Shown here: positions 1 to 53,068 of the stretch, piece after piece
Layout: each line of letters starts with the position of its first letter
Position numbering within the stretch: the stretch's first letter is position 1
Origin: Chrysomallon squamiferum
Lineage: Eukaryota > Animalia > Mollusca
Direction: 5' to 3'
Assembly (NCBI GenBank): GCA_012295275.1
Contig: CM022669.1
Location: 7,192,001-7,256,000 of the forward strand
Length of the DNA stretch: 64,000 nt
The notes under the pieces: model-generated
The model's database searches: none
What the model saw: only the letters and a program-made list of their open reading frames with translations
What the model was told of the DNA's origin: nothing
Position numbers and translations under genes: made by a program

Positions 1-3000
1 ATATTTGGCTCTTTACTCTACAAAATCTCAGCTGTAGATTCAGTTGCAATGATACAGTTTCAAAGTAGAAAGAACGTAAGTTGACACCAGAAATCAGTGT
101 ACCAGTAGCATCACTACATAACTGAATTTCTTGATTGTGTTGTAAACAGATGTTGTAATTGATGCTGATGCTACATCGACATGCATGATTTTGTTAAATG
201 TGTAAATTACATAATTTTCATTTGCTGGTCAGTAGTCAGTTGTTCATTTTTTTAACTGTTGCAGTGAATAACTGTCCAGTATGGTGAGCAAATGTTCTAG
301 CACCATAAATATGAACCATTGATATAAAATGTAATGTAATGCAGTGGTAAATGTTTGTAAATAAATAAATAGTTTTATTCTAATAAATGAAGAAATTTAA
401 AATATGCCATCTGAAATATCATTTTGTGAATTACTTGCAGAGATAACTCAAGATTATTGAGTTGGCTAAAAAACAAAAAGAATCAAACAAAAATGCCCCA
501 CATAAACCACAAAGAAACAAAACAAATCAAAACAACATTAACAAAGTTAAACTTTACTTAAATAAGGAAAAAAATAAGCAAGGAAACAGAAAAATAAATG
601 AAACTGAAGGAAAATTGTATTAATAAAAAAGCAAAAAGAAAATAACATTATTTTTAGACTAAATTATTTTATTCTGCACCAAAACTATATTGCTATTATT
701 CTACTGATACTAGAGTTTACACCAAAGCTCTAATAATTTAGTTACAACAAACACATTCAAACATTATTATCAGGGTTAAATTAAATGAAGACCAATTGTT
801 AAAAATCCAGGAGTTGAAGAACTCCCAAAAAGATGCATCAATAAAATAGATTATACACTGTCTTGTAAGCTTTCTGCTTGTAACTGATTCTATTCAATGC
901 CTTTGGATAATATTATTCTTTGTTGTTTATCACCAAATCTGGGCATTACACAAAACAGATTTGGTTAATTTGATTTTGATAAGAAAAAGCATTTAAACAG
1001 CTGGTATCACATGGCTAAATTTAAATCTGATTACAATAATTCTGCACACTACAAGCATGAAAAGTTTATTCAATAATAATGAATATTTAGAAGGCTAGAT
1101 CTTTTTGAACAAAACAAAAATTTGTTTCAATTCTATGAATAAATAAGAAAAAATAGACAGACAAATCTAAAACTAAAGAAATTAGCCATCTGCTTTATAG
1201 CAAGTAACTATACTGATTGTCATACAAATTAATATATTCAGCACAATAATAATTTAAAATGCAGTACTGTGTGTAATTTATTACATAAAACCTATAAAAT
1301 ATAGGATGATTAACAAGCAATGTTAAGTAATGAAAAAATCCCTCTGTGATTATAACAATTTCTTCATGCTTGCTTAGACTGTTGGCTTTGTTGAGATACA
1401 AAAATTTATTTTCGAAATGTCAATATCTTTGTTTTCTTATATAATTTGAAACTAAATGTGTCACTGTTGAATACTGGGTTATGTACAAATATAAGGATCA
1501 ACATAAAATGATAAGCAATTTGTTAATTTCATTAAACTGTGATACTTTTATTTTTGCACATCTCGTTAAACTATGTTTTAATTTTCTTTTCAATTTCTAT
1601 ATATAAAGTAACCATCACTTTGTTGTATTTGGTTTGACACCCAATAGCTGATATGTTTTTCATACTGGGTGTCATTAAATATTCATTCACTCACTCATTC
1701 CATTAGATAACAGTGCTACTTCAGAGTGTAATGTAACTAATATTTCATGATATTTAGAAATATTAGTAATAACTTGAGGTTTGTTATTCAGTAAATACAA
1801 GACATGACAGCTAAATCACAAAATAATATCCAGCAAGCGATAAAAAATATCAATAAGTTCTTGTGTTATTAAAGAAAACGATTCTTTTTTCATGTTATAT
1901 GATAATACATATTTTAGATTTCACCTCATCACACTCTCGCATTCTTCTTTCCCTGAAAAAAAATACAGAGTAAATTAAATAACTATTTTTAAAAACAGAC
2001 CATAAAGAACTGTTAAGAAATATTACTATAAAACTGAGGTTTTATAAAAGTGGTTGTTATGAGATCTTTACAAAGTGAAATAAAATGTAACGTTATTTAA
2101 GACCTTTCAGAAGCATCCTCATCCTGTTCTTCTGGTTTATTTTCTGACATTTCCGTCTCTACCTGACTGGCTGCTTTGATCTCATCTTCTTCAAGTTGTG
2201 AAAAAACAAGCAAACAATAAAAACATTCAAGGTTTCTTACATTAATGATTTACAAGCAGATTACTTATGCCATTATTTATCTCAATTAATAAATTATTTA
2301 TAACAATAAAAACATGAATAGTTATTGGTAAACTAAGTTATTGCAATAGCATTAGTTAGTATTTTCTACCACCTATATACTACACACCTTTTTTTATCAG
2401 CATAATACATAAACTGCCTGTCCCTTGTGAAAATAAAGAAAACAGATACATTGTTTTAGGTACTCATGTTATCAGATACTGGCTGGAATATCAAATGACC
2501 AAGAAGGATTCATTCCAGTATTCTCTATCTTAAGCTCAGAAAATTACATTTCGAGTTTCTCATTAAGCACTAAATATTAATGAGTTAGATGATCTTTTTT
2601 TTTGGGGGGGGGGGGTTGGTTGGTTTTGCCACGTGATTGATTTATCTACTGATTATTTTTGTCATAATTTTTCTTGACTAATAAGTTATTTCTATTATTA
2701 GTTACATATAATATCAGTCAGAATTCAGAAGCATCATTACATTACCTTTTGTTGATTAGCATAAAATATTTAATGAGCAATATGATTAATTATTACCTTC
2801 TGAAATCACTCAGCTCAAAGAAATTGTTTGGATATGAATTTAGTATCTTCTGTTAATATGTTCCATTCTTAAATTCACTGATGCAGGTACAAAACGATGA
2901 TAGACAGCATAGCAGCAATGTTAAGCAATGAAAGGTTTAAATTTACCTTTGTCGTTTTCCATTTGCTGACCAGAAGAACCTTTAATACTACATGGAGACT

Positions 3001-4653
3001 TTCTGAAAAACAAAAGAAATAAAAAATCAGACGACGTTAGTCTGAGCATCCATTGCTGAGAACAGCTGACAGACCACTAGATGAGTATCAGTGGAGAACC
3101 AGTGATTTCCATCCAAATTTGTGTTTGTGCTGTTCTCAGAGTGATGTTTGACCCTGATTATTTTCAGTGACATATACGTTATGTTTATAAAAGGTACACA
3201 ATTGAGTATTACGATTCTAATTTCACTGTAGCTTAATGTTTGTGACAGACAGAGAAAATATAAAGCTTTGACGTGTGTCTGCAGTAGTCATTTTGTCATT
3301 TTCACTTTCAGATGTTTGTTTTGATTTATTCGTATGTTGGACTTTCAGAGGCTGTGTCAGATTTTGAGTACTCCTGTAGCCTGTATTGTACAGAAAATAT
3401 TTAAAATTAAATAAATATCTATACCTTGATTCCTCTGCAGTATGAGAATGTGAATCTGATTTTTGTGATGAAGGATGATGTACCTAACACACACAAACAA
3501 TAATTATTTTTAGTTTAATTAACAGCATATTTACTGTCACAATTAATCAATTTTTATCATCAGTTAAATTGCATTTACTTCCTGAATTAAAACAATTTAA
3601 AATAAAATAGAATGAAAAAGGATTTGAAAATAACAAATATAAAAAATAGTGTTATCGTTGCAAGTTCTGATAAAGTCAAATTTTGTTAATTATATGCTTC
3701 TAAAATAGTTTACTTTTTTAGTTTCTGAAAGTGTTTGCATTACTTGAGCTGCAGTTGCAGACTGAGATTCTTGAGGTGGTCTGTTTGAAGAGATTTGATG
3801 TTCTGACTCTGGCGTCTCATTCTTAATTTCTAGAAGGAAAAAACAGAACATTTTGATAAATATATTTCTCATTGCAATTAGTATGTCATTCCAGATTTAA
3901 TTTTCTTTTTTCCACTTTAAAAAAGAGTTTTAATTTTTTTTAATAATTACATTTTCATCATCATCATCATTACAGGTGTTCTCCTGGGTTATGTGATGTA
4001 ACCTGTCTGGAACTGAGGGAGGTTTAGAAAATATTTTTATTTTTTATATTCTTATTACTTCCTGTGCTCAGATAGATTGCAAATTAAAGCCTTTTTATCT
4101 TTATATCCACTGGCAATTTAAATACTGATTACAATATGAACAAAAAACACATATAAACAAGAATCCTTACGATTACCTTTATCTTTTTCTCCATCCTGCT
4201 TGTTACGTGTATCATCTTTATTGACAGGATTTCCTTCTTGTGTTGGTCTGACATCAATTAAAAAAGAAACACTTATTAACAACAAACTGAATATTTTTTT
4301 CACATCTGCTATGGAATAAAAAACCACAATCCTGCAACAACAAATAATAACAAAGAAAAGATAAATAAATATTTAAAAAAAAAAAAATTTTTTTTTTTTA
4401 AAACTCCTCCCCCCCCCAAAGAAACAACATCTGTCAAGTTTTATTTGAATTATACAAATAATATTTCTTAATGTTCCTTTGTTTTTCAAAGATCACTTGT
4501 TGGTAAATGGAGTGGTAAATGAAGAAAAGAAGACTGATGATGAAATTCAGGATAAGTCAAAGTTCTGGATGGAGGCTTTTTTATACTTCTGTAAAATATA
4601 CATTTTATTCAACATATTTTTTGTTGTTATTATCCTTTGTTTAAAAATACTGT

Positions 4654-4719
<66 letters not shown>

Positions 4720-5103
4720 AAGTAATTCTTTACATTTCACACATCACATTGTGTTAGTTTCAGATGTAAATATATTATTATATTAAAGAACAAACAAGAG
4801 AGAATTATATATCTATATTACTATTTATGTATCTGTCTGTCTGTCTATATATATCTATCTATCTCTATCTATCTTTCTATATATAGGGATGTTGTCTTGT
4901 TTACGTGTTATTTCTTTACAAACAGATTTCTAAAAGAAGAATAACTTACTCTGTCTGTTCTTTTTCATCACTTGTGGAAGGTTTCTCAGTACTGTAAGCA
5001 TGTAGAAAATAATATATAATTATATGCATTCTTGAAATGTTTCATATCACTCCTATTGTACATGATAAGAACAGGAGTTACCCACCTTGATTCTTTAAAT
5101 ACA

Positions 5104-5138
<35 letters not shown>

Positions 5139-5300
5139 GTCTTGTGTATAATTTGTTCCTTTACTGGAGTGAAACAAATTATTAGTTAATTTATCATTTA
5201 ACTATTTTTCTTTCTTTGTTCTTGTGTCCTTAAGTTGCAAAGATCATATGTACAAGACAAGTTGGATATATTTTAATAACAAAGTTATAAAACAATAAAG
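1..5300. repeat. Segmental duplication, copy of ~38431-43500 (offset ~38.4 kb)
   Basis: Position 1 (atatttggctctttactctac…) recurs at 38431, and colinear high identity continues through the 3' flank and tail exons. The duplication probably extends left of the window. Confidence 0.95.
1895..4247 (-). CDS. C-terminal exons of TTC24-like locus A ending in CaaX (…EVKSKICIII*)
   Basis: Exons 4171-4247, 3714-3829, 3425-3483, 2947-3002, 2104-2188, 1895-1952. Phases 2-1-0-2-1-2 join perfectly, and the first five exons have the same lengths as in paralog B. Splice sites of 2104-2188 are weak. Confidence 0.72.
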
Positions 5301-7110
5301 TAACAAGACAAACTGTTGCTTGACTATCAACAATATTTATATTTGCAACTGATTCATATAAAATGAGAAACCAAAACATGGTTTTGTTTTGAATGGAGAG
5401 TCAACATAGGTGAAAATGAAGATGTACAACTATTAAAAGAACATATACCATTTACAAAGTAATTCTTTACATTTACACACTGAATTTATATTAGTTTCAG
5501 AAGTAAATATATTATTATAAAATACTGCAAAATGAACACCTTCAGTTATTAGAGAATATAAATAATAAATAAAATACACCAAAGCAAAAATAAAAACAAA
5601 AAAATCTCGTTTAGAAAGTAATTCTTTGCATTTCACACATTCAGCTGTTAGTTTCAGATGTAAATATGTTATCATAAAATACTGTAAGATAAACTTCTCT
5701 GATTACTAAAACAAAATACACACTTCATACAACATATTTCTTGTTGATGTTGTCTCATTTTTATAAAGTACTGCTAATATATATAGAAGTAGTTTTTGAT
5801 TGTGTGTGTGTAACTCTCTCTGTCTATCTTTACATATATATATCTGGATCTTGTCTTGTGTATGTGTTCTTTCTTTACTTACTCTCTCTGTTCTTCTGCA
5901 TCACTTGCAGACGCTTCTTCAGTACTGTAAGCACAGACAAAATAAAATATAATTATATGCATTTATGAAAGGTTTCATATTACACCTTGTTCCTTTACAT
6001 AGAAGTGGAGATAAGAACAAGACTTACCCACCTTGATTCTTTATGTACAATGTGTATGCATGTGTTTGCGTGTGTCTGTGTGTATGTGTTGTCTTGTGTA
6101 TAGTTTGTTCCTTTAGTGGAGTGAAAACAATTGTAATAATTCATTGTTAAAAAACAAATGATTAGTTAATTTATCATTTGACTATTTTTCTTTCTTTTCT
6201 GTTGTGTGCTCAAGTTGCAAAGATATGTACAAGACAAGTTGGATGTATTTTAATAACAAAGTGATAAAACAATAAAGTAACAATACAAACTGTTGCTTGA
6301 CTATGAACAGTATTTATATTAGCAACCGATTTATATAAAATAAGAAACCAAAACATGGTTTTGTTTTGATTGGAGAGTCAACTTAGGTGAAAATGAAGAT
6401 GTACAACTATTAAAAAAAAATATACTATTTACAAAGTAATTCTTTACATTTACACACTGAACTTATATTAGTTTCAGATGTAAATATGTTAGTATACAAA
6501 TACTGCCATTTGAACACCTTCAGTTATTAGAGAATATAAATAATAAATAAAATACACCAAAGAAAAATAAAAACAAGAAAATCTCATTTAGAAAGTAATT
6601 CTTTGCATTTCACATTCAACTAATGTTAGTTTCAGAAGTAAATATGTTATTATAAAATACTGTAAGATGAACTCCTCTGATTACTAAAACTACAACACAC
6701 TTCATTCAACATATTTCTTGTTGATGTTGTCTCATTTTTTAAAATACTTCTAATGTATATAGAAGTAATTTTTGATGTGTGTGTGTCTGTGTGTGGGTGC
6801 ACATGTCTGTCTCTCTTTCTGTCTAGCTGTAAGTATATATATATATAGATAGATAGGTAGATTGATAGATAGATAGATCGATATGGATGTTGTCTTGTGT
6901 ATGTGTTCTTTGTTTACTTACTCTGTCTGTTCTTCTGCATCACATGCATAAGCTACTTCAGTACTGTAAGCACACATAAAATCAAATATAATTATATGCA
7001 TTTATGAAATTTTTCATATTACACTTTCTTCCTTTACACAGAACTGGAGGTAAGACCAAGAGTTACCCACCTTGATTCTTTATGTACAATGTGGCATGTA
7101 TTTGTGTGTG

Positions 7111-7155
<45 letters not shown>

Positions 7156-7818
7156 TGTCTTGTATATATTTTGGAGTGATAAAAATTGTAATAATTCATT
7201 GTTAAAAAGTAAATTATTAGTTAATTTATCATTTCACTATTTTTCTTTCTTTTCTATTGTGTGCTCAAGTTGCAAAGATCATATGTACATGACAAACTGG
7301 ATATACTTTAATAACAAAGTTATAAAACAATAAAGTAACTAGACAAACTGTTGCTTGACTATCAACAATATTTATATTTGCAACTGATTCATATAAAATG
7401 AGAAACCAAAACAACTATTAAAAGAACATATACCATTTACAAAGTAATTCTTTACATTTACACACTGAACTGATATTAGTGTCAGAAGTAAATATGTTAT
7501 TATAAAATACTGCAAAATGAACACATTCAATTATTAGAGAACATAAAAAATAAATAAAATACACCAAAGCAAAAATAAAAACAAGAAAATCTCATTTAGA
7601 AAGTAATTCTTTGCATTTCACACATTCAGCTGTTAGTTTCAGATGTAAATATGTTATTATAAAATACTGTAAGATGAACTTCTCTGATTACTAAAACAAA
7701 ATACACACTTCATTCAACATATTTCTTGTTGATGTCTCATTTTTATAAAGTACTCCTAATGTATATAGAAGTAATTTTTGATTGTGTGTGTGTGTCACTC
7801 TCTCTCTCTGTCTATCTT

Positions 7819-7849
<31 letters not shown>

Positions 7850-9131
7850 GGATGTTGTCTTGTGTATGTGTTCTTTCTTTACTTACTCTCTCTGTTCTTC
7901 TGCATCACTTGCAGAAGCTACTTCAGTACTGTAAGCACACACAAAATAAAATATAATTATATGCATTTATGAAAGGTTTCATATTACACATTGTTCCTTT
8001 ACATAGAAGTGGAGATGAGAACAAAAGTTACCCACCTTGATTCTTTATGTACAATGTGTATGCATGTGTTTGCGTGTGTCTGTGTGTATGTGTTGTCTTG
8101 TGTATAGTTTGTTCCTTTAGTGGAGTGATAACAATTGTAATAATTCATTGTTAAAAACAAATGATTAGTTAATTTATCATTTGACTATTTTTCTTTCTTT
8201 TCTGTTGTGTGCTCAAGTTACAAAGATATGTACAAGACAAGTTGGATGTATTTTAATAACAAAGTGATAAAACAATAAAGTAACAATACAAACTGTTGCT
8301 TGACTATGAACAGTATTTATATTAGCAACCGATTTATATAAAATAAGAAACGAAAACATGATTTTGTTTTGATTGGAGAGTCAACTTACGTGAAAATGAA
8401 GATGTACAACTATTAAAAAAAATATACCATTTACAAAGTAATTCTTTACATTTACACACAGAACTTATATTAGTTTCAGATGTAAATATGTTAGTATAAA
8501 AATACTGCCATTTGAACACCTTCAGTTATTAGAGAATATAAATAATAAATAAAATACACCAAAGAAAAATAAAAACAAGAACATCTCATTTAGAAAGTAA
8601 TTCTTTGCATTTCACACATTCAACTAATGTTAGTTTCAGATGTAAATATGTTATTATAAAATACTGTAAGATGAACTCCTCTGATTACTAAAAAAACAAC
8701 AATCTTCATTCAACATATTTCTTGTTGATGTTGTCTCATATTTTAAAATACTTCTAATGTATATAGAAGTAATTTTTTATGTGTGTGTGTGTGTGGGTGC
8801 ACATGTGTGTCTCTCTTTGTGTCTAGCTGTAAGTGTATATATATATTTATAGATAGATAGATAGATAGATAGCTTGATAGATAGATAGATCGATATGGAT
8901 GTTGTCTTGTGTATGTGTTCTTTGTTTACTTACTCTGTCTGTTCTTCTGCATCACATGCATAAGCTACTTCAGTACTGTAAGCACACATAAAATAAAATA
9001 TAACTATATGCATTTATGAAATTTTTCATATTACACTTTGTTCCTTTACACAGAACTGGAGGTAAGAACAAGAGTTACCCATCTTGATTCTTTATGTACA
9101 ATGTGGCATGTATTTGAGTGTGTGTGTGTTT

Positions 9132-9173
<42 letters not shown>

Positions 9174-9912
9174 TGTCTTGTATATATTTTGGAGTGATAA
9201 AAATTGTAATAATTCATTGTTAAAAAGTAAATTATTAGTTAATTTATCATTTCATTATTTTTCTTTCTTTTCTATTGTGTGCTCAAGTTGCAAAGATCAT
9301 ATGTACATGAGAAGCTGGATATATTTTAACAACAAAGTTATAAAACAATAAAGTAACAAGACAAACTGTTGCTTGACTATCAACAGTATTTATATTAGCA
9401 ACCGATTTATATAAAATAAGAAACCAAAACATGGTTTTGTTTTGATTGGAGAGTCAACTTAGGTGAAAATGAAGATGTACAACTATTAAAAAGAATATAC
9501 CATTTACAAAGTAATTCTTTACATTTACACACTGAACTTATATTAGTTTCAGATGTAAATATGTTAGTATAAAAATACTGCCATTTGAACACCTTCAGTT
9601 ATTAGAGAATATAAATAATAAATAAAATACACCAAAGAAAAATAAAAACAAGAAAATCTCATTTAGAAAGTAATTCTTTGCATTTCACACATTCAGCTGT
9701 TAGTTTCAGATGTAAATATGTTATTATAAAATACTGTAAGATGAACTCCTCTGATTACTAAAAAAACAACAATCTTTATTCAACATATTTCTTGTTGATA
9801 TTGTCTCATATTTTAAAATACTTCTAATGTATATATAAGTAATTTTTGATGTATGTGTGTGTGTGTGGGTGCACACGTGTGTCTCTCTCTGTGTCTAGCT
9901 GTAAGTGTATAT

Positions 9913-9945
<33 letters not shown>

Positions 9946-10187
9946 TATGGATGTTGTCTTGTATATGTGTTCTTTCTTTTCTTACTCTGTCTGTTCTTCT
10001 GTATCACTTGCATAAGCTTCTTCAGTACTGTTAACAAACATAAAATAAAATATAATTATATGCATTTATGAAATGTTTCAAATTACACTTTGTTCCTTTA
10101 CACAGAACTGGAGATAAGAACAAGAGTTACCCACCTTGATTCTTGATGTACAGTGTGGCATGTATTTGAGTGTGTGTCTGTTTGTGG

Positions 10188-10242
<55 letters not shown>

Positions 10243-11517
10243 TTGTCTTGTATATATTTTGGAGTGATAAAAATTGTAATAATTCATTGTTAAAAAGTAA
10301 ATTATTAGTGAATTTATCATTTCACTATTTTTCTTTCTTTTCTATTGTGTGCTCAAGTTGCAAAGATCATATGTACATGACAAACTGGATATATTTTAAT
10401 AAAAAAGTTATAAAACAATAAAATAACAAGAGAAACTGTTGCTTGACTATCAACAATATTTATATTTGTATCTGATTCATATAAAATGAGAAACCAAAAC
10501 ATGGTTTTGTTTTGAATGGAGAGTCAACATAGGTGAAAATGAAGATGTACAACTATTAAAAGAACATATACCATTTACAAAGTAATTCTTTACATTTACA
10601 CACTGAATTTATATTAGTTTCAGAAGTAAATATATTATTATAAAATACTGCAAAATGAACACCTTCAATTATTAGAGAACATAAAAAATAAATAAAATAC
10701 ACCAAAGCAAAAATAAAAACAAAAAAATCTCGTTTAGAAAGTAATTCTTTGCATTTCACACATTCAGCTGTTAGTTTCAGATGTAAATATGTTATTATAA
10801 AATACTGTAAGATGAACTTCTCTGATTACTAAAACAAAATACACACTTCATTCAACATATTTCTTGTTGATGTTGTCTCATTTTTATAAAGTACTGCTAA
10901 TGTATATAGAAGTAATTTTTGATTGTGTGTGTGTCACTCTCTCTCTGTCTATCTTTACATATATATATATATATATATATATATGGATGTTGTCTTGTGT
11001 ATGTGTTCTTTCTTTACTTACTCTCTCTGTTCTTCTGCATCACTTGCAGAAGCTTCTTCAGTACTGTAAGGACACACACAATAAAATATAATTATATACA
11101 TTTATGAAAGGTTTCATATTACACATTGTTCCTTTACATAGAAGTGGAGATATGAACAAGAGTTACCCATCTTTATTCTTTATGTACAATGTGTATACAT
11201 GTGTTTGCGTGTGTCTGTGTGTATAATAAATAAAATACACCAAAGAAAAATAAAAACAAGAAAATCTCATTTAGAAAGTAATTCTTTGCTTTTTACACAT
11301 TCAACTAATGTTAGTTTCAGATGTAAATATGTTATTATAAAATACTGTAAGATGAACTCCTCTGATTACTAAAAAAACAACAAACTTCATTCAACATATT
11401 ACTTGTTGATGTTGTCTCATTTTTTAAAATACTTCTAATGTATATAGAAGTAATTTTTGATGTGTGTGTGTCTGTGTGTGGGTGCACATGTGCGTCTCTC
11501 TTTCTGTCTAGCAGTAA

Positions 11518-11584
<67 letters not shown>

Positions 11585-11812
11585 TGGATGTTGTCTTGTG
11601 TATGTGTTCTTTCTTTACTTACTCTCTCTGTTCTTCTGTATCACTTGCATAAGCTTCTTCAGTACTGTAAGCACACATAAAATAAAATATAATTATATGC
11701 ATTGATGAAATGTTTCAAATTACACTTTGTTCCTTTACACAGAACGGAAGATAAGAACAAGAGTTACCCACCTTGATTCTTTATGTACAATGTGGCATGT
11801 ATTTGAGTGTGC

Positions 11813-11876
<64 letters not shown>

Positions 11877-12548
11877 GTGTATGTTGTCTTGTATATATTT
11901 TGGAGTGATAAAATTGTAATAATTCATTGTTAAAAAGTAAATTATTAGTTAATTTATCATTTCACTATTTTTCTTTCTTTTCTATTGTGTGCTCAAGTTG
12001 CAAAGATCATATGTACATGACAAACTGGATATACTTTAATAACAAAGTTATAAAACAATAAAGTAACTAGACAAACTGTTGCTTGACTATCAACAATATT
12101 TATATTTGCAACTGATTCATATAAAATGAGAAACCAAAACAACTATTAAAAAAGAACATATACCATTTACAAAGTAATTCTTTACATTTACACACTGAAC
12201 TGATATTAGTGTCAGAAGTAAATATGTTATTATAAAATACTGCAAAATGAACACATTCAATTATTAGAGAACATAAAAAATAAATAAAATACACCAAAGC
12301 AAAAATAAAAACAAGAAAATCTCATTTAGAAAGTAATTCTTTGCATTTCACACATTCAGCTGTTAGTTTCAGATGTAAATATGTTATTATAAAATACTGT
12401 AAGATGAACTTCTCTGATTACTAAAACAAAATACACACTTCATTCAACATATTTCTTGTTGATGTCTCATTTTTATAAAGTACTCCTAATGTATATAGAA
12501 GTAATTTTTGATTGTGTGTGTGTGTCACTCTCTCTCTCTGTCTATCTT

Positions 12549-12579
<31 letters not shown>

Positions 12580-13570
12580 GGATGTTGTCTTGTGTATGTG
12601 TTCTTTCTTTACTTACTCTCTCTGTTCTTCTGCATCACTTGCAGAAGCTACTTCAGTACTGTAAGCACACACAAAATAAAATATAATTATATGCATTTAT
12701 GAAAGGTTTCATATTACACATTGTTCCTTTACATAGAAGTGGAGATGAGAACAAAAGTTACCCACCTTGATTCTTTATGTACAATGTGTATGCATGTGTT
12801 TGCGTCTGTCTGTGTGTATGTGTTGTCTTGTGTATAGTTTGTTCCTTTAGTGGAGTGATAACAATTGTAATAATTCATTGTTAAAAAACAAATGATTAGT
12901 TAATTTATCATTTGACTATTTTTCTTTCTTTTCTGTTGTGTGCTCAAGTTACAAAGATATGTACAAGACAAGGTGGATGTATTTTAATAACAAAGTGATA
13001 AAACAATAAAGTAACAATACAAACTGTTGCTTGACTATGAACAGTATTTATATTAGCAACCGATTTATATAAAATAAGAAACGAAAACATGATTTTGTTT
13101 TGATTGGAGAGTCAACTTACGTGAAAATGAAGATGTACAACTATTAAAAAAATATACCATTTACAAAGTAATTCTTTACATTTACACACAGAACTTATAT
13201 TAGTTTCAGATGTAAATATGTTAGTATAAAAATACTGCCATTTGAACACCTTCAGTTATTAGAGAATATAAAAAATAAATAAAATACACCAAAGAAAAAT
13301 AAAAACAAGAAAATCTCATTTAGAAAGTAATTCTTTGCATTTCACACATTCAACTAATGTTAGTTTCAGATGTAAATATGTTATTATAAAATACTGTAAG
13401 ATGAACTCCTCTGATTACTAAAAAAACAACAATCTTCATTCAACATATTTCTTGTTGATGTTGTCTCATCTTTTAAAATACTTCTAATGTATATAGAAGT
13501 AATTTTTTATGTGTGTGTGTGTGCGTGCACATGTGTGTCTTTCTTTCTGTCTAGCTGTAAGTATATATAT

Positions 13571-13607
<37 letters not shown>

Positions 13608-13826
13608 TATGGATGTTGTCTTGTGTATGTGTTCTTTCTTTACTTACTCTGTCTGTTCTTCTGTATCACTTGCATAAGCTTCTTCAGTACTGTAAGCACA
13701 CATAAAGTAAAATATAATTATATGCATGTATGAAATGTTTCATATTACACTTTGTTCCTTTACACAGAACTGGAGATAAGAACAAGAGTCACCCATCTTG
13801 ATTCTGTATGTACAATGTGGCATGTA

Positions 13827-13864
<38 letters not shown>

Positions 13865-15330
13865 GTCTTGTATATATTTTGGAGTGATAAAAATTGTAAT
13901 AATTCAGTGTTAAAAAGTAAATTATTAGTTAATTTATCATTTCACTATTTTTCTTTCTTTTCTATTGTGTGCTCAAGTTGCAAAGATCATATGTACATGA
14001 CAAGCTGGATATAATTTAATAACAGAGTTATAAAACAATAAAGTAACAAGACAAACTGTTGCTTGACTATCAACAATATTTATATTTGCAACTGATTCTT
14101 ATTAAATGAGAAACCAAAACATGGTTTTGTTTTGAATGGAGAGTCAACATAGGTGAAAATGAAGATGTACAACTATTAAAAGAACATATACCATTTACAA
14201 AGTAATTCTTTACATTTACACACTGAACTTATATTAGTTTCAGAAGTAAATATGTTATTATAAAATACTGCAAAATGAACACCTTCAATTATTAGAGAAC
14301 ATAAAAAATAAATAAAATACACCAAAGCAAAAATAAAAACAAGAAAATCTCATTTAGAAAGTAATTCTTTGCATTTCACACATTCAGCTGTTAGTTTCAG
14401 ATGTAAATATGTTATTATAAAATACTGTAAGATGAACTTCTCTGATTACTAAAAAAACAACAAACTTCATTCAACACATTTCTTGTTGATGTTGTCTCAT
14501 TTTTTAAAATACTTCTAATGTATATAGAAGTAATTTTTCATGTGTGTGTGTGTGTGTGCGTGCACATGTGTGTCTCTCTTTCTGTCTAGCTGTAAGTATA
14601 TATATATATAGATAGATAGGTAGATTGATAGATAGATAGATAGATATGGATGTTGTCTTGTGTATGTGTTCTTTCTTTACTTACTCTGTCTGTTCTTCTG
14701 CATCACATGCATAAGCTACTTCAGTACTGTAAGCACACATAAAATAAAATATAATTATATGCGTTTATGAAATGTTTCATATTACACTTTGTTCCTTTAC
14801 ACAGAACTGGAGATAAGAACAAGAGTTACCCACCTTGATTCTTTATGTACAATGTGGCATGTATTTGAGTGTGTGTGTGTTTCTGTGTTTGTGTGTGTGT
14901 TTGTGTGTGTGTTTGTGTGTGTGTGTGTTGTCTTGAATATATTTTGGTGTGATAAAAATTGTAATAATTCATTGTTAAAAAGTAAATTATTAGTTAATTG
15001 ATCATTTCACTATTTTTCTTTCTTTTCTATTGTGTGCTCAAGTTGCAAAGATCAAATGTACATGACAAGCTGGATATATTTTAATAAAAAATTTATATAA
15101 CAATAAAGTAACAAGACAAACTGTTGCTTGACTATCAACAGTATTTATATTAGCAACTGATTTATATAAAATAAGAAATAAAAACATGGTTTTGGTGTGA
15201 ATGTAGAGCCAAGACAAGTGAAAATGAAGATGTACAGCTATCAAAAAATATATCATTTATAAAGTAATTCTTTGCATTTCATACACTGAACTCATGTTAG
15301 TCTGATTTGCAAATATGTTATTATATCAAA
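4700..15330. repeat. ~1-kb tandem (intron + micro-exon) repeat, ~10.5 units, with embedded (TG)n, (TA)n and (GATA)n and an internal ~150-bp sub-duplication
   Basis: Micro-exon spacing is 933, 1039, 965, 1047, 1052, 1036, 601, 994, 1031 and 1037 bp. The motif aaagtaattcttt(a/g)cattt…gtaaatatgttattataaaatactg occurs twice per unit. Confidence 0.95.
4950..14726 (-). CDS. Array of 11 symmetric 42-nt micro-exons encoding acidic 14-aa repeats (locus A)
   Basis: Exons 14685-14726, 13648-13689, 12617-12658, 11623-11664, 11022-11063, 9986-10027, 8934-8975, 7887-7928, 6922-6963, 5883-5924, 4950-4991. Each reads (t/a)acag|TACTGA…CAGAVAGA|gtaag, is phase 2-2 and has no stop codon. Confidence 0.8.
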
Positions 15331-15449: not shown

Positions 15450-18749
<3,300 letters not shown>

Positions 18750-18764
<15 letters not shown>

Positions 18765-21700
18765 TAAATATAAAATATTTTGCAACCAAACTTTGCAGAA
18801 ATGCCAATAAATGATAATAATTATATAAGAAGATTATTATGCACTACATTAATCAAAGATATGTACAACTGAAAAAGACGCATCTGTTTATTTACATAAT
18901 CTCCATTGACAACCGAAAGAGTTAACTCCCTTTTAATAATTTGTAATATTACGGAGATTGCCGAAAATTGATAAATAAATCAATAATTCGGTACACATAA
19001 ACAAACTTTATTATATAATTATTTAATCATAAAATTATCTAACGTAATATTACAAATCTTTTAAAGTAAACCAGCAGTTTGAATACAGATCTTATCAGCA
19101 GCACCTATAGTGAATTTATTGCTACGATTTTATTTTTGCTGCTAGTGCCAAGTATTACAAAATATTGAACATTTTCCTTTTTTCAGACCCCTTCTGAAAA
19201 GACGACGACGACATTATGAGAGACAAGTCGCTGTTCTTCTAATGAATTTAAGAAGAAAAAAGGAGGTCTATTCAAGACAGACCATGCAGACCATTAGTCC
19301 AGCTTTGTATTCGTATCAGTTTTCAAGCATTTAGTTTTTTAGCACCAGTTTAGTTTATCAACATCAAATAAACTGACAGCTCCTTCGGTACTTATTTTTC
19401 TCAAATGAATGAAGCACATTTTGATATTCCTAGAAGTCAAAGTCATCCAAAGCCCATACCAGGTCAATGAAAACACCATGAAAATAATAATGGTAAAAGT
19501 AGTAGTAATTCATTGTCATATGTTGACAACAGCAAATTTTTATTTTCAAATTAAATTAGTTTAACTAAATTTAATGATTCTGAATGTACAGCCACTATTC
19601 ACTTGAACAACAAGAACAAATGTTAATTTCTTAATAATAAATTTAATTTCTTCAATGAAAAATATGTACAGAGATCAGTTACACAAGAACAAAATATTAC
19701 ATGCATCAATGCAGACCTTTATTATCTTAAACTGTCTGAATTTCCACCTTAAATCTCAGTACATACAAATATGATACATACAAATATGATTAGACCAGCT
19801 TTATTTTAATAAAGAACATTCTATAAAGACCTGAAATAAATCCACATGTGCAACCAACCCTTAACAAATGGCAATGTCATTGCAGACTGTTTTGTTTTTA
19901 TTCTAGAAAATTAAAATGGAGACTGCTGCACGTTTTAATTCTCCTTGGCAATGTTTCTGCCAAAGACAAGATTCAGTTTCTCAATCCAGAACTTAAAACA
20001 TTCCAGAGCAAAACTGTCATTGAACATGGTATCGACATGATTTTTCTAAATTTGTTTTTCTATTTATGTTTTATCCTCAGATATTGTACTGATCATTTTG
20101 CAGACTATTTGGATAATGTAAACTAAATTAAATATTAAACACTATAACACATTTTATTTAATGATGCAACATTGTTGTTATGTTTTAACATTAAAACATA
20201 AAGTTCATTTCAATTTCCAAACAATTTATTTCGTTTCAAAAATTGCTACAAACAAAACTGACGCACGCTCCCGGTGACTTCATATAATAATGTCCCCTCT
20301 TCCGGTTCCCTTAAACATCGTAAACTGTAACAATGTTAACTATAACACCATTTAAATACAACAATTGTATTCAGCTATATAACACATTTTATTTATGATC
20401 GTATAGTTTTGGACATATAGTTCAGAACAACCCAGATAACAAGAGATAATTTGAAACTGCCAATCTACTTTTATTTCTACATGTATACACTAATAGTCAT
20501 GCTCGTCACAAACTTTATAATACTTTTTGCCACCAATTTTAGTCTTTTTACATTATTATTCTTTGTAGTGATAGTAACTTGAGATGTTTAATAATGTTTA
20601 TTCAGAGGATTAGATAATAAATGCACAATGAACACTGATTTTGTACAAGAACATTAACTTGAGGTGTTTGATAAATGCACAATCTACACTCTGAGTTTAG
20701 ATGAAGATCCTGCAACAAAGAAGAAAGCATTGGCAACACACACAAGTTACTTATCTTGGACATATTAAGAACTACTGTTAATTAGAAACTGTAATTTTCT
20801 TTTGTACTGTTTATATTTTGATGTAGAACTAAATGTGTTTGCATATTTTTATTTTGTTTCCAATGGATGCAATTTATATTTTGAAAATTAATCTAATGAG
20901 AATTAAGGATCAAGTTGAAATTTTTATACTAAACATGTGATTATTGCACAAAAAAAAAAAAAAAAAATGGTCTAAACTTACCAATCGTTTACACACAGAG
21001 TGTATATTTGCTTATGGAGATTTATTAGTCTCATTGTTGTCAGTTATTTGGCACATTATTACATTATAATAAATGAAATAATTATTTTAAGTTATGTATT
21101 GATTTCAGTTTGTTATTTCCAACAAGAAAGAATGAATTTTTATGTGTTTTGATATGTAAACAAATTTTGAAAATCACCTTTTTGTTTATTTAATAACAAT
21201 AAAATACAAGCCAGTCATAATTATATATTACTAGTCATTTACAGATTTGGGTTATATAGTTAAATGGGACCACAGTTCTTTGTCAGAAGTGCAATATTAT
21301 GATTTTGTTTTTATCTTTTTGCATTTATATTAATAGCATTTTATTAACATGTGCAAGATTTCTGTTGTTAATATCTGGATAGCATAATAATAACAAAATG
21401 TTTAGCTTATTGAGTGTACATAATAATGAATTTTAAGTTGTTGTAATTTAGGTCTGTGAACACAAAATAAAATATAACTATATGCATTTATGAAAGGTTT
21501 CATATTACACCTTGTTCCTTTACATAAAACTGGAGAGAAGAACAGGAGTTATCCATATTGAGTTGTTAAATACAGTGTGTCTGTGTGTGTGTCTGTTTTC
21601 TTCTGTATATGTTGTTCCTTTACTGGACTAAAAAAATTGTAAGATTTTATTTTTAACAAGTAAATCATAATTTTAATTTATCTTTTAACCCTTGTTTTTT

Positions 21701-24418
21701 TTCTTTCTTTTTTGTTGTGAGCTCATGTCACAAAGATAATATGTACAAGACAAGTTGGATATATTTTAGTAACAAAATGTATTAAAAAAAGTATGAAAAA
21801 AATAAAATAAAATAAGAAACAGTTTCTTGACTATCAACAATATTTATATTAGCAACTGATTTATATAAAATAAAAAACCAAACATTGTGGGTCTTTTTAA
21901 TGGAGAAACAAGACAGGTGAAAACAAAGATGTACAACTATTAACAAAATATATCATATACAAAGTAATTCTTTACATTTAAACACTGAACTTATTAGTTT
22001 CAAATGTAAATATGTTATTATAAAATACTGCAAACTGAACACCTTCAATTATAAGGGAATTTAAAAATAAAATTCATCAAAGAAAAATAAAACCAAAAAT
22101 TTCTCATTTAGAAAGTAATTCTTTGCATTTCACACATTCAGCTAATGTTAGTTTAAGATATAAATATGTTATTATAAAATACTGTAAGATGAACTCCTCT
22201 GATTACAAAAAAAATTTACACACTTAATTCAACATATTCCTTAATGATGTTGTCTCATTTTTATAAAGTACAGCTAATGTATTTAGAAGTAATTTTTGAT
22301 TGTGTGTGTGTCTATCTCTGTCTATCTGTCTATATAATATATATATATATATGTGTGTGGATGTTGTCTTGTGTATGTGTTCTTTCTTTACTTACTTTGT
22401 CTGTTCTTCTGCATCACTTGCAGAAGCTTCTTCAGTACTGTAAGCACACACAAAATAAAATATAATTATATGCATTTATGAAATGTTTCATATTACACCT
22501 TATTCCTTTACATAAAACTGGAGATAAGAACAAGAGTTACCCACCTTGATTCTTTATGTACAATGTGTATGCATGTGTTTGAGTGTCTGTGAGTTTGTGT
22601 TTGTGTGTGTGTTCTCTTGTATATATTTTGGAGTGATAAAAATTGTAATAATTCATTGAAAAAAGCAAAAACTAAAAAAAACGATATTTTAATAAAAAAT
22701 GTATATAACAATATAGTAACAAGACAAACTGTTGCTTGACTATCAACAGTATTTATATTAGCAACTGATTTCTATAAAATAAGAAATGAAAACATGTTTT
22801 GGTTTCAATGGAGAGCTAAGACAAGTGAAAATGAAGATGTACAGCTATCAAAAAATATATCATTTATAAAGTAATTCTTTGCATTTCATACACTGAACTC
22901 ATGTTAGTTTGAGTTGTAAATATGTTATTATATCAAATCATAAACTTTCAACAAATAAAAAGCAAAAACAAACAAAAACAACTTTGATGCACTTTTAAAA
23001 CTACACTCATTATTACAAATAATAAACATCTGAAGTAAGAACAAAATAGACAAACCTTTGTTTTTTATTTCTACTGCTGGTGAGAGTTGATGGATCACAT
23101 AGTTTTAACATATAACCACTGCTCGAATTCTGACCAAGAAATGAGAATTATTCAAAAAATTAACCACATACTAGAATAGTGAAAAAACATTTGGAAATTA
23201 AATAACAATTAATATACTTGTTTTCATACATTTCAAAATTACAATTTCAATTAATTTAAAATAATATATTTTATTTACTCTGCACGTTTTTGTTTGTTTG
23301 TTGTTCGAAGCTTTATCATAGCTTTATCATATTTATATGTGACTGTACACATCTGCTTTCCAAATTCTAGAGGCATATATTTTGAAATTTATTATGACCA
23401 ATTTTATTACTTAGCAGTGTTCGTGAAAGGGATGGTGGGAATCGGCGTAGCTGGTGCAAGTTAAATGAAGGGATGCTACAGAAAATGTTCAGGTTACAAG
23501 TACTGTGAACAATATTCAAATTACTTGTTTGTCAAAAATACTCCTATAAATAATTGCATCAAATGCATTAACTATTAACAAGTTTATGTTACTAGCAATT
23601 AAATAAAATCAAAGTGTCTGTTCAATTTATTATGCAAAACGAAGTTCACTAGATAAACGGTTAGCAGATATTGCTGCCATTGCTGACAAATGGCAGGTGA
23701 ACTGGTCTTAAGCTGTAAGGTATGGCATGTAGTGAGACCTCTGCTTAGAGTATTCAATTAGTAAGAAAACTGGAAACTAGTACTGACTGATAATAAAGTA
23801 ATTTACTCCAAAACCAAAATAGCTATCAATACTTTAGTCACCTTATTTCTACTTCCTTGTATAAAATTATTACTATAAAACAGAAATCTATACATCACTG
23901 CATTCTAAAAACTTGTTATTACCATTAGAAAAGGTTGCAACTGCTGTATAATTACTTCCAATTATACAAAACATGCTTATGAATTTTGTTTACAATACTG
24001 TATTAATAGCTGTATTAATTTATGTGTAAAATACAAAAAATGTCTAAAATAAATAATTACCGTGGTGACCGTATCTGACTGTTTAATTACACGTCTTAAC
24101 TTCTGGTAAATGCGTTCGTAAACAGAGCTGTACTGAGAACAAATATCTTTGGTTTTAGGAGCAAGATTAAGAGCTCGTTTGTAATAACCTTCTGCATTTT
24201 CAAAATCCTTCTGCTTTTCTTCCACAGAGCCAAGATTTTCTAGAGCTTGAACCGTTGAGTTAAGATCACCTAAAATTTAAAGAGATTAAAAACAATCAGA
24301 ATTAATTTATTATTAAATAAAAATTATATTTTAGTTTAAACAAAACTGAAAACAAGTGTTTTAAACCTAACAGTTAAATATAAAATGGCAAAAACAGTCA
24401 TTGTTGGAATGGGTTTTA

Positions 24419-24460
<42 letters not shown>

Positions 24461-25546
24461 TATTACAAAACAAATAATAAATAGACATCCATGCAAAAAG
24501 GTCATTAACTGTTATTCATCATTTTAGCACTAGTAGTTTAGTTTGTAAATCTGTAGTATTCAAATAGTTAGTATTATAAAACCAACACACACACACACAA
24601 ACACACACACACAAATGCACTATATTAAATGAACTTATACTTTAATTAAATGACATACGACTGTTCCTGGCTGCCCAAAGAGCATGTAAAAAAGCTTCTT
24701 TAGCATTTTCTATCTGTCCCAGCTGACTGTATGCATAGCCCTGATTAAGAAAGCAATGACCTTGATTCTGCATATTTTTTAATTTTGCTAAAAATAAAAA
24801 GAACCATACAAACATTGAAATATAAATAAATAAATAGTGTGTAATAAATGAAAAACATTCAGTAGTATAAAATTCATCACCTACCTTCTGTAAATAAATG
24901 ATACATATTCTGTGGTTTTCACATATATGTTACTCAGATTCAGTATTATTCACGTTTCCAGCTGCAGTTTTATTATACAGTAGACCTTCAATTAATGGAC
25001 TAATAGTAGTGTTTGTTATTTCTGAAGTTTGTTAAATCACAAATGTTTTAAAATGATAAGACTGCAAAATTGTAACTCTTTAATCACTTAATTCTAACAA
25101 TGTGAAAAAAAAATGGTCAGGCTGAGCATGATATGATATATGATAACATATTGAGAAATGCATGGGTGCATCATATCGGTTATTGATGGCACTGAGTCTT
25201 CCAGAGGAATACAAGAGGGTTTACATAAACTAAGTAACTTGCATTCAAAATTCTTTATAAAAATTATTCTTGATGTTTTGCATTTATCAAAATGTTTATC
25301 ATCTGACATGTGTTGTGCAGTACATACCAAATATTTCAGCAGCACATCTCTCAAGTCCAATAGCTTCATCACATTTGTTCAGGTAACATTTGACAACTCC
25401 ACTGTTTTGATTAAGTGCTGCTCTAACCTTAGATGGGTCTTGGGAAATCACCTCTAAACCTCGGGTAAAACAGTCATCTGCTTTGTCCACATCATTTCTT
25501 CGTACATAAAACAGACCCAGGCTGTTGTACATATTAGCTGTTTGTT

Positions 25547-25590
<44 letters not shown>

Positions 25591-28500
25591 ACAATAACTA
25601 CAACAACAACAATACAAAGTAATCAAAATAATAGCAGCAATATCAAAATACTATTATTAATAATTTAATAGCTATATATTATAATTATATTTATGCATGT
25701 TAAATGGTTATACATTTTTAATGATTTTATTTTATTTTATTTTATTTATTTATTTATTTATTTCCGTCATTTTATTATGTCTTAGATTCGCATTTACATT
25801 CCTGCTGGAATTTTAATAGGCCTATATATCATATATAAATATGAATTAGATTTTTACTTACTTACATATAGAAATTGTCTCATTGTTAATTGAATTATTA
25901 ACAACATAATCATATGTTTACATTATTATTATTATTATTATAAAATATACGTTTTGCATCAATTCGATTCGTTTTCACAACTTACCCAAAGTGGATGGCA
26001 AAATATTGTTCTTATGTTTCAAAAGAGCTGCATAACAGAAGTCTCCATCGACTTGATTATCGTTACCATTGTTGTCTGCTTCATCACACTCTACCAAATA
26101 TTCTAACAAAGTACTGATACATTTTTCATAATTTGCCATTTTTTCGTAAGCTGACGAAAGTTTCTTTAGCCATTGTACATTCGACTGGGAGTCGGTTCTT
26201 GTCAGATCGACCAATCTCTTCAATACGTAGACTTCGTTTTCAGCTGCCGTTTTATCTTTGCTGTATGCTTGGTAGGCTTTTTCGAAATATCTTAGCACCT
26301 GATCGTCACAACCCTTCTTTTCGGAAGTTTCTTTAGCCATTAAATATAAAATATTTTGCAACCAAACTTTGCAGAAATGCCAATAAATGATAATAATTAT
26401 ATAAGAAGATTATTATGCACTACATTAATCAAAGATATGTACAACTGAAAAAGACGCATCTGTTTATTTACATAATCTCCATTGACAACCGAAAGAGTTA
26501 ACTCCCTTTTAATAATTTGTAATATTACGGAGATTGCCGAAAATTGATAAATAAATCAATAATTCGGTACACATAAACAAACTTTATTATATAATTATTT
26601 AATCATAAAATTATCTAACGTAATATTACAAATCTTTTAAAGTAAACCAGCAGTTTGAATACAGATCTTATCAGCATCACCTATAGTGAATTTATTGCTA
26701 CGATTTTATTTTGCTGCTAGTGCCAAGTATTACAAAATATTGAACATTTTCCTTTTTTCAGACCCCTTCTGAAAAGACGACGACGACATTATGAGAGACA
26801 AGTCGCTGTTCTTCTAATGAATTTAAGAAGAAAAAAGGAGGTCTATTCAAGACAGACCATGCAGACCATTAGTCCAGCTTTGTATTCGTATCAGTTTTCA
26901 AGCATTTAGTTTTTTAGCACCAGTTTAGTTTATCAACATCAAATAAACTGACAGCTCCTTCGGTACTTATTTTTCTCAAATGAATGAAGCACATTTTGAT
27001 ATTCCTAGAAGTCAAAGTCATCCAAAGCCCATACCAGGTCAATGAAAACACCATGAAAATAATAATGGTAAAAGTAGTAGTAATTCATTGTCATATGTTG
27101 ACAACAGCAAATTTTTATTTTCAAATTAAATTAGTTTAACTAAATTTAATGATTCTGAATGTACAGCCACTATTCACTTGAACAACAAGAACAAATGTTA
27201 ATTTCTTAATAATAAATTTAATTTCTTCAATGAAAAATATGTACAGAGATCAGTTACACAAGAACAAAATATTACATGCATCAATGCAGACCTTTATTAT
27301 CTTAAACTGTCTGAATTTCCACCTTAAATCTCAGTACATACAAATATGATACATACAAATATGATTAGACCAGCTTTATTTTAATAAAGAACATTCTATA
27401 AAGACCTGAAATAAATCCACATGTGCAACCAACCCTTAACAAATGGCAATGTCATTGCAGACTGTTTTGTTTTTATTCTAGAAAATTAAAATGGAGACTG
27501 CTGCACGTTTTAATTCTCCTTGGCAATGTTTCTGCCAAAGACAAGATTCAGTTTCTCAATCCAGAACTTAAAACATTCCAGAGCAAAACTGTCATTGAAC
27601 ATGGTATCGACATGATTTTTCTAAATTTGTTTTTCTATTTATGTTTTATCCTCAGATATTGTACTGATCATTTTGCAGACTATTTGGATAATGTAAACTA
27701 AATTAAATATTAAACACTATAACACATTTTATTTAATGATGCAACATTGTTGTTATGTTTTAACATTAAAACATAAAGTTCATTTCAATTTCAAACAATT
27801 TATTTCGTTTCAAAATTGCTACAAACAAAACTGACGCACGCTCCCGGTGACTTCATATAATAATGTCCCCTCTTCCGGTTCCCTTAAACATCGTAAACTG
27901 TAACAATGTTAACTATAACACCATTTAAATACAACAATTGTATTCAGCTATATAACACATTTTATTTATGATCGTATAGTTTTGGACATATAGTTCAGAA
28001 CAACCCAGATAACAAGAGATAATTTGAAACTGCCAATCTACTTTTATTTCTACATGTATACACTAATAGTCATGCTCGTCACAAACTTTATAATAATTTT
28101 TTGCCACCAATTTTAGTCTTTTTACATTATTATTCTTTGTAGTGATAGTAACTTGAGATGTTTAATAATGTTTATTCAGAGGATTAGATAATAAATGCAC
28201 AATGAACACTGATTTTGTACAAGAACATTAACTTGAGGTGTTTGATAAATGCACAATCTACACTCTGAGTTTAGATGAAGATCCTGCAACAAAGAAGAAA
28301 GCATTGGCAACACACACAAGTTACTTATCTTGGACATATTAAGAACTACTGTTAATTAGAAACTGTAATTTTCTTTTGTACTGTTTATATTTTGATGTAG
28401 AACTAAATGTGTTTGCATATTTTTATTTTGTTTCCAATGGATGCAATTTATATTTTGAAAATTAATCTAATGAGAATTAAGGATCAAGTTGAAATTTTTA

Positions 28501-31990: not shown

Positions 31991-32035
<45 letters not shown>

Positions 32036-33118: not shown

Positions 33119-33156
<38 letters not shown>

Positions 33157-44272: not shown

Positions 44273-44306
<34 letters not shown>

Positions 44307-46874: not shown

Positions 46875-46949
<75 letters not shown>

Positions 46950-48457: not shown

Positions 48458-48514
<57 letters not shown>

Positions 48515-53023: not shown

Positions 53024-53068
<45 letters not shown>

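What the first reader, a model, noticed from the sequence alone, without database searches (positions are those of the whole stretch)
4950..14726. Hidden micro-exon array: a ~1-kb 'satellite' encodes a tunable acidic spacer
Seen: every ~1-kb unit carries exactly one 42-nt minus-strand segment with acag| acceptor and |gtaag donor. All 11 keep length, phase 2-2 and an open frame, while the surrounding intron has many indels. In transcript order: TEVAYACDAEEQT, TEEAYASDTEEQT, TEVASASDAEEQR, TEEAYASDTEEQR, TEEASASDAEEQR, TEEAYASDTEEQT, TEVAYACDAEEQT, TEVASASDAEEQR, TEVAYACDAEEQT, TEEASASDAEEQR, TEKPSTSDEKEQT, joined by Asp across junctions. The phases match the upstream exon (…KQ+AG) and the downstream exon (A+PTQEG). 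Paralog B has only one intact copy. Inference: any subset can be skipped in frame, so both splicing and copy number could set linker length in 14-aa steps (up to 154 aa). This is reminiscent of schistosome micro-exon genes. The ORF track cannot show it.
Basis: partly seen in the sequence, partly recalled or inferred. Interest (0 to 1): 0.9.

Follow-up and report, generated by a model that had tools for sequence, protein, structure and literature searches.

The report
Amplified micro-exon in a broken duplicate
A 42-base, exon-like piece of an invertebrate TPR-protein gene is repeated eleven times together with its intron, but this gene copy has a stop codon just upstream, so the repeat is likely a neutral duplication rather than a working, length-adjustable protein spacer.

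Summary
The 11 segments are real: 42 nt, ACAG|…|GTAAG, stop-free in phase 2. They lie in copy A of a TTC24-like gene (TPR repeats, acidic tail, CaaX end) present four times in the window (A-D). The segments are no more conserved than their introns (6.6% vs 7.3% divergence; 5 amino-acid-changing to 1 silent change; all-intact by drift about 0.11). RNA contigs show the gene's 3' exons spliced, but neither confirm nor exclude micro-exon inclusion; only copy 11 could be examined. Best reading: a likely real cassette exon amplified by unequal crossing-over in a disabled duplicate (0.5). A translated, splice-variable linker remains possible (0.3): upstream copies C/D could splice into the array in frame, the deletion could be an assembly error, and a scallop homologue has two skippable 9-aa tail repeats. 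The architecture is a known kind; it is not a schistosome MEG.

The parts
14685..14726 (-). 42-nt segment A1 (phase 2-2)
13648..13689 (-). 42-nt segment A2
12617..12658 (-). 42-nt segment A3 (unit 98.9% identical to unit 8)
11623..11664 (-). 42-nt segment A4 (followed by the short 601-nt unit)
11022..11063 (-). 42-nt segment A5
9986..10027 (-). 42-nt segment A6 (donor GTAAGA)
8934..8975 (-). 42-nt segment A7
7887..7928 (-). 42-nt segment A8
6922..6963 (-). 42-nt segment A9
5883..5924 (-). 42-nt segment A10
4950..4991 (-). 42-nt segment A11, the most diverged unit
15450..15522 (-). Copy A exon 5: 73 nt (74 in B, C, D); TAA at 15501-15499 in the frame delivered by exon 4
16442..18764 (-). Copy A exons 1'-4 (18764-18410, 17889-17674, 17143-17015, 16650-16442), TPR repeats; exon 1 is 5'-truncated, with a new in-frame ATG at the junction
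4177..4247 (-). Exon downstream of the array (phase 2 to 1); predicted, no junction listed in RNA
1895..3829 (-). Copy A 3' exons 3829-3744, 3483-3425, 3002-2947, 2188-2104, 1952-1895, ending CIII*; junctions between them seen in RNA contigs
21455..26340 (-). Copy C: 5'-truncated exon 1, exons 2-5 in frame, one 42-nt segment (22437-22396), cut off at the acceptor of a further unit
29020..34264 (-). Copy D: full exon 1, exons 2-5 (exon 4 has 2 extra T in a homopolymer), one 42-nt segment (30006-29965), no 3' exons
40346..49170 (-). Copy B: complete predicted ORF of 569 aa with one intact 42-nt segment (44121-44080) and two damaged ones (45106-45067; remnant near 43350-43330)

Best explanation
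The ~1-kb repeat is a likely genuine 42-nt cassette exon of a TTC24-like TPR gene, duplicated with its intron to 11 copies, likely by unequal crossing-over and without selection, in a gene copy whose reading frame stops just upstream, so the array is likely not translated from that copy. SHOWN: 11 in-phase segments; intron and segment duplicated together; four gene copies; the 73-nt exon 5 and its stop; the 5' truncation of A. INFERRED: that the segment is a spliced exon (moderate splice signals, fits phase 2-2, acidic like the family's tail); that the mechanism is unequal crossing-over (units 88-99% identical, two pairs five units apart at 98-99%, and C and D break off exactly at a unit's acceptor with microhomology); that A's mRNA would be a nonsense-mediated-decay target (established rule: a stop with many junctions downstream); and that B or copies outside the window supply the working protein.
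For: Exon 5 is 73 nt in A and 74 in 3 of 3 other copies; first stop at codon 311. The deletion is not in a homopolymer, unlike 13 of the 20 indels listed between C and D. A's exon 1 has 355 nt against 709 in D. The rescue acceptor 8 nt into exon 5 scores -1.7, against 5.3-15.9 for 23 training sites; the one other donor giving phase 1 among the last 8 GT sites of exon 4 scores -0.5. No selection signal: 6.6% vs 7.3% divergence; 5 N: 1 S in A1-A10 and 12 N: 3 S in 13 copies, against about 86: 25 possible; joint intactness about 0.11. In B, 2 of 3 copies are damaged while the ORF stays open. In run X2, exons 3829 and 2188 are joined upstream to an exon that does not occur in the window, so other copies or haplotypes are expressed.
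Against: A-type 3' ends are present as spliced RNA: joint 1951-2103 in 2 of 3 RNA runs, and one X1 contig matches 1750-1951 with 0 differences, including A's own 48-nt in-frame deletion. A's 3' exons and CaaX end remain in frame. A model running D exons 1-3, C exons 4-5 and C's segment into the array gives an open 749-aa ORF. The assembly shows indel-type differences between near-identical copies (3 substitutions vs 20 listed indels over 6.7 kb, of which up to 3 are alignment-end effects), so a 1-nt error is possible. Zero of 11 copies damaged leans mildly towards selection. Scallop homologue isoforms skip two tandem 9-aa tail repeats independently.
Confidence: 0.5

Rival explanations
1. The array is translated: exon 5 is intact in most animals (assembly error or rare allele), or D/C exons 1-5 splice past A's broken block into the array. 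This gives a TPR domain held from a predicted prenylated C-terminus by an acidic linker whose length varies in 14-aa steps with splicing and copy number.
For: Open ORFs of 616 aa (alternative acceptor) and 749 aa (D/C into the array). Spliced A-type last exon in X1 and X2. 11 of 11 copies intact. The linker would hold 60 D/E against 7 K/R in 155 codons. A CaaX-like end in 18 of 21 hand-picked homologues, against 3 of 100 other long hits. In-frame tail deletions among database isoforms of scallop (9 of 9 compared), Babylonia and amphioxus homologues.
Against: It needs an error or the skipping of four well-formed exons across a spacer with 18 AATAAA hexamers (the DNA is AT-rich, so this is weak). 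No selection signal. Segment-like letters in RNA contigs appeared only still attached to their own intron (X1 loose end at 4986, X3 record 22). No long array-like repeat in the tails of the 21 homologues (best self-match 19 of 28 columns).
Confidence: 0.3
2. The 42-nt segments are pseudo-exons within an intronic satellite and are not spliced in any copy.
For: All copies descend from one unit, so the signals count once. Splice scores are in the low range of real sites (acceptor 5.1-7.8, donor 4.5-5.5), and 1-5 comparable stop-free pairs occur by chance on the 64-kb opposite strand. B's frame stays open without the segment, because exon 5 ends and the next exon begins in phase 2.
Against: The length is a multiple of 3, and phase 2 is the only frame open in all 11 copies (frame 0 has a stop in 11 of 11; the third frame in 5 of 11). 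Its composition fits the family's acidic tail. The segment is 40% GC against about 28% around it. The diverged A11 keeps length and both splice sites despite flanking indels.
Confidence: 0.15
3. The array, or the C/D/A arrangement, is largely an assembly artefact.
For: C and D differ by only 3 substitutions over 6.7 kb, plus mostly homopolymer indels, as in a false duplication.
Against: Array units differ from each other by 1-12% with structured indels. Several distinct variants of the unit's flank are present in run X5 and in the RNA runs.
Confidence: 0.05

Closest known systems
Tetrahymena LRR genes with tandem 90-bp phase-2 exon arrays (PMC6564038; 12 of 66 passages seen)
   Same: Equal-length exons flanked by phase-2 introns, a junction codon shared between exons, expansion by duplication with unequal crossing-over implicated.
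   Different: There each exon encodes a folded LRR, thousands of genes are involved, and RNA-seq supports inclusion. Here there is one locus, a 14-aa low-complexity unit, and inclusion is unproven.
Disordered proteins built from symmetric, tandemly duplicated exons, e.g. calpastatin, MAP2, ameloblastin (PMC3632108; abstract and section 19 seen)
   Same: Symmetric exons encoding disordered modules, arising by internal tandem duplication and prone to alternative splicing; an exon repeated up to 10 times in AMBN.
   Different: Those are intact, expressed genes. This array sits behind a stop and shows no selection.
LPA kringle IV-2 copy-number repeat (PMC6314250; 9 passages); titin PEVK exon repeats (PMC6469411; 2 passages); NBPF/Olduvai repeats (search listing only)
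   Same: Intragenic exon-plus-intron repeat units; copy number (LPA) or splicing (titin, recalled) sets protein length.
   Different: Larger units or many more exons, with demonstrated protein isoforms. Copy-number polymorphism was not testable here.
Schistosoma micro-exon genes, MEG (10.1101/2023.06.21.545858; first third of the text seen)
   Same: Short exons in multiples of 3 between long introns, permitting in-frame skipping.
   Different: MEGs consist almost wholly of 6-81-nt exons, encode secreted proteins and are schistosome-specific. Here near-identical recent copies of one exon make up 25% of a modelled TPR-CaaX coding sequence.
Invertebrate TTC24-like proteins, e.g. XP_035666388.1 (amphioxus, named TTC24-like), XP_033749631.1 (Pecten maximus)
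   Same: N-terminal TPRs collinear with exons 1-4, a long acidic/Ser-rich tail, a C-terminal CaaX-like motif; database isoforms differ by in-frame tail segments, including two tandem 9-aa repeats in scallop.
   Different: No comparable long tandem repeat in the 21 homologue tails examined. Here the gene is locally multiplied, with truncated copies.

Membership tests
Schistosome MEG | Coding sequence made almost entirely of micro-exons | tested here: not met
   462 of about 1850 coding nt (11 of 22 exons) in the rescued A model; 1 of 12 exons in B
Schistosome MEG | Short exons in multiples of 3 between long introns | tested here: met
   11 of 11 are 42 nt, phase 2-2, spaced 601-1052 nt
Schistosome MEG | Secreted protein | not tested
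   No signal-peptide predictor run; the N-terminus is hydrophilic TPR and the C-terminus CaaX-like, which argues against secretion (inference)
Schistosome MEG | Specific to Schistosomatidae | tested here: not met
   Homologues in molluscs, a brachiopod, a nemertean and amphioxus
Schistosome MEG | Many splice variants verified in transcripts | tested here: inconclusive
   Only copy 11 was laid against RNA contigs; no joint listed, output tables cut
TTC24-like TPR proteins | N-terminal TPR repeats collinear with family members | tested here: met
   Pfam TPR hits in all four TPR exons tested; exon 3 hits all 21 picked homologues in order, 36-62% identity
TTC24-like TPR proteins | Low-complexity tail ending in a CaaX-like motif | tested here: met
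   A and B end CIII*; C at position -4 in 18 of 21 homologues
TTC24-like TPR proteins | Orthology to vertebrate TTC24 by tree | not tested
   The name rests on amphioxus cluster members and an Atlas hit at rank 16 of 30; no tree built
Tandem symmetric exon-plus-intron arrays (Tetrahymena 90-bp, LPA KIV-2 type) | Exon and intron duplicated together, same length and phase | tested here: met
   Units 88-99% identical along their length, the short unit aside
Tandem symmetric exon-plus-intron arrays (Tetrahymena 90-bp, LPA KIV-2 type) | Array lies in an open reading frame | tested here: not met
   As assembled, a stop at codon 311 upstream; open only in rescue models
Tandem symmetric exon-plus-intron arrays (Tetrahymena 90-bp, LPA KIV-2 type) | Copy number varies among individuals | not testable with these tools
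   No genome held; contig depth is not copy number; paralogues carry 11, 3, 1 and 1 units

The most novel reading that the evidence does not exclude
Truncated copies D and C and copy A form one compound gene that splices round A's broken exon 5 into the array. It makes a membrane-anchored TPR scaffold whose acidic tether is set in 14-residue steps by both exon skipping and heritable copy number: a molecular ruler between a TPR domain and a prenyl anchor.
Probability: 0.15. Interest if true: 0.6.

Novelty: new member of a known kind. Interest (0 to 1): 0.3.

Why it matters
If the best reading holds, this is a clear snapshot of how disordered protein tails grow: a symmetric exon and its intron are copied as a satellite at no frame cost and with no sign of selection, and the repeat unit also marks rearrangement breakpoints in the gene cluster. 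It also shows that 'all copies intact' in a young array is not evidence of function. If the rival holds, a little-studied family (TTC24-like) gains a natural linker-length series with which to test what the spacing between TPR domain and membrane anchor does.

Tried and rejected
RNA absence: no joint 4950-4247 or 4177-3829 was listed in 3 of 3 RNA runs, and X1 and X3 show no cover at 4951. This is not used as evidence: the data are contigs from one study, and 74 loose-end rows and 215 piece rows were hidden. X2 bins over exon 4247-4177 are deeper than their neighbours (14.7 and 23.1 vs 4.9 and 0.8), which hints the other way and is equally unusable. No whole genome is held, so copies outside the window could not be located. 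Word-seeded protein searches gave 1 weak hit and none. A segment pattern matched 0 metagenome contigs. Rfam gave 0 matches. PDB gave only generic TPR hits. The Atlas gave generic TPR clusters. Earlier scan findings: none. I first suspected a second frameshift in A (2 extra nt at 3273-3274 relative to B) and dropped it, because the RNA-supported chain bypasses that segment and is open. For the column statistics I left out unit 4 (430-nt deletion, misaligned) and A11's unit. The 21 homologues were picked by hand from 150 hits (N-terminal match, longer than 390 aa). The splice-site matrix used only 23 + 23 sites, and its training scores are inflated. Literature searches listed no paper on micro-exon arrays in TTC24-like genes, judged from listings (20 of 38 TTC24 papers shown); subscription journals are not covered and no supplements were read.
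Full report
OBSERVATION. A mismatch scan of both strands with the first segment found 15 full-length matches, all on the minus strand. All 11 in A are 42 nt, flanked by ACAG and GTAAG, and stop-free in phase 2 with the stated peptides. Spacing is 933-1052 nt, with one 601-nt unit. Joined, they would give 60 acidic and 7 basic residues in 155 codons.

THE GENE. Self-comparison shows four same-strand copies of one gene downstream of a CEP120-like gene (that name is recalled from the peptide, not tested). Exons 1-4 carry Pfam TPR hits. A HMMER search with D's exon 1 gave 803 hits at E<=0.001, with 150 listed. I picked 21 that match at their N-terminus. All 21 also match exon 3 in order, and 18 of 21 have Cys at position -4, against 3 of 100 other long hits. 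Of ten looked up, eight carry names: they come from molluscs, a brachiopod, a nemertean and amphioxus, where two isoforms are called TTC24-like. A and B end CIII*. The family plan is therefore TPR domain, long acidic tail and CaaX-like end; prenylation is inferred from recalled knowledge of the motif. Copy B gives a complete 569-aa ORF with one segment. D has a full exon 1 but no 3' exons. C and A share a 5' deletion that creates a new ATG. C and D end at the acceptor of a further repeat unit, with microhomology to the spacer.

A's exon 4 ends in phase 0. A's exon 5 is 73 nt; in B, C and D it is 74 nt. The delivered frame hits TAA at the exon's eighth codon (codon 311), upstream of the whole array. 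The KQ+AG frame is the shifted one. Skipping exon 5 does not help, since frame 0 of every segment begins Tyr-stop. Three rescues exist. An acceptor 8 nt inside exon 5 gives a 616-aa ORF but scores -1.7, against 5.3-15.9 for training sites. Splicing from D/C exons into the array gives a 749-aa ORF. The deletion could also be an assembly error: C and D differ by 3 substitutions and 20 listed indels over 6.7 kb, 13 in homopolymers, but A's deletion is not in a homopolymer.

IS INTACTNESS MORE THAN CHANCE? Units are 88-99% identical, the short one aside, and units 2/7 and 3/8 are 98.2% and 98.9% identical. In 9 of 10 full units, exon divergence is 6.6% and ungapped intron divergence 7.3%. Changes in A1-A10 are 5 amino-acid-changing to 1 silent, against 86:25 possible. 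Of 726 non-microsatellite intron windows, 214 are indel-free and 106 also have four invariant edge columns; multiplied by the chance of no stop, this gives about 0.11. There is no demonstrable selection. The splice signals count once, as all copies share one ancestor, and lie in the low range of real sites; 1-5 comparable pairs occur on the 64-kb opposite strand. I still judge the segment a likely exon, from its phase, its composition and its persistence in the diverged A11.

RNA. Five runs hold part of the region, four recorded as RNA from one study. Three RNA runs and run X5 were laid as contigs on 1750-5090. Joints 3480-3741 and 3002-3425 and 2188-2947 appear in 3 of 3 RNA runs, and the A-type joint 1951-2103 in 2 of 3. 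They define an open tail frame to CIII*. So an A-type 3' end is transcribed and spliced, which counts against a simply dead copy. A B-like 3' end with further variants is also present. In X2, exons 3829 and 2188 are joined upstream to an exon absent from the window, so expressed copies or haplotypes exist that this window does not show. Segment-like letters were seen only attached to their intron (X1, X3). No joint involving copy 11 was listed, but the tables were cut, and exon 5 and copies 1-10 were not examined. Inclusion is therefore open.

FAMILY PRECEDENT. Database isoforms of the scallop homologue differ by in-frame tail deletions of 4 to 81 aa, including two adjacent 9-aa repeats that are dropped singly or together; Babylonia and amphioxus isoforms also lose tail segments. 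These are automated models, and exon boundaries are inferred from the proteins. They make in-frame tail variation plausible for the family. None of the 21 homologue tails has a comparable long array.

MECHANISM. Shown: segment and intron were duplicated together, in phase, inside a copy with an upstream stop. Inferred: a symmetric exon in a disordered tail can be duplicated at no frame cost; once two units exist, unequal crossing-over adds more; drift explains their state; and A's own transcript would be an NMD target. Confidence is 0.5, against a translated variable linker 0.3, pseudo-exons 0.15 and an artefact 0.05.

COMPARISON. It works like the Tetrahymena 90-bp phase-2 exon arrays (PMC6564038, passages), symmetric-exon disordered proteins (PMC3632108, abstract and one section) and LPA KIV-2 (PMC6314250, passages). 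At 42 nt it fits the <=51-nt micro-exon definition (PMC4317164, listing). It is not a MEG: two defining features were tested and not met (membership table). My eight literature searches listed nothing on such an array in TTC24-like genes.

VERDICT. A real, neat, recently amplified exon-like array of a known architectural kind, whose headline function is undercut by an upstream frameshift and neutral-looking divergence. Interest 0.3.

Noticed in passing
window 52520-63500, minus strand: Multi-exon gene with a coiled-coil C-terminus that resembles CEP120 (name recalled; one exon had no Pfam hit; ORFs).
   Followed up: no
window 17945-33896: 7.6-kb tandem duplication (98.7% identical) with ends in the (AAT)n repeat of intron 1; mostly homopolymer differences, so either very recent or a false duplication.
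   Followed up: partly
window 46043-46600, minus strand: Copy B has an internal duplication of the 3' part of exon 4; the first copy has a 33-nt in-frame deletion, and the second partial copy is out of phase with it.
   Followed up: partly
window 3829 and 2188 (loose ends in run X2): Two similar exon ends (translated about KTTTTEQHA and KTTTTEHQT), absent from the window, are spliced to two different tail exons; this suggests another copy with a duplicated tail block. They loosely resemble the end of segment 3373-3273.
   Followed up: partly
window 3464: All contigs laid at this place in 4 of 4 runs read G, where both A and B in the window have T: a different haplotype, further copies, or an assembly error.
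   Followed up: no
window 2188-3425: A joint skipping exon 3002-2947 is seen in X1 and X3; in A's frame it would shift the frame and remove the CaaX end, or it comes from another copy.
   Followed up: partly
window 4964 and 4970: Run X5 has a segment variant lacking 3 nt, and X3 has one with a different 3' half: further diverged copies of the unit exist outside this assembly window.
   Followed up: no
window 1895-1952 vs 40346-40451: A's last exon is 48 nt shorter than B's, in frame, and both keep CIII*.
   Followed up: yes
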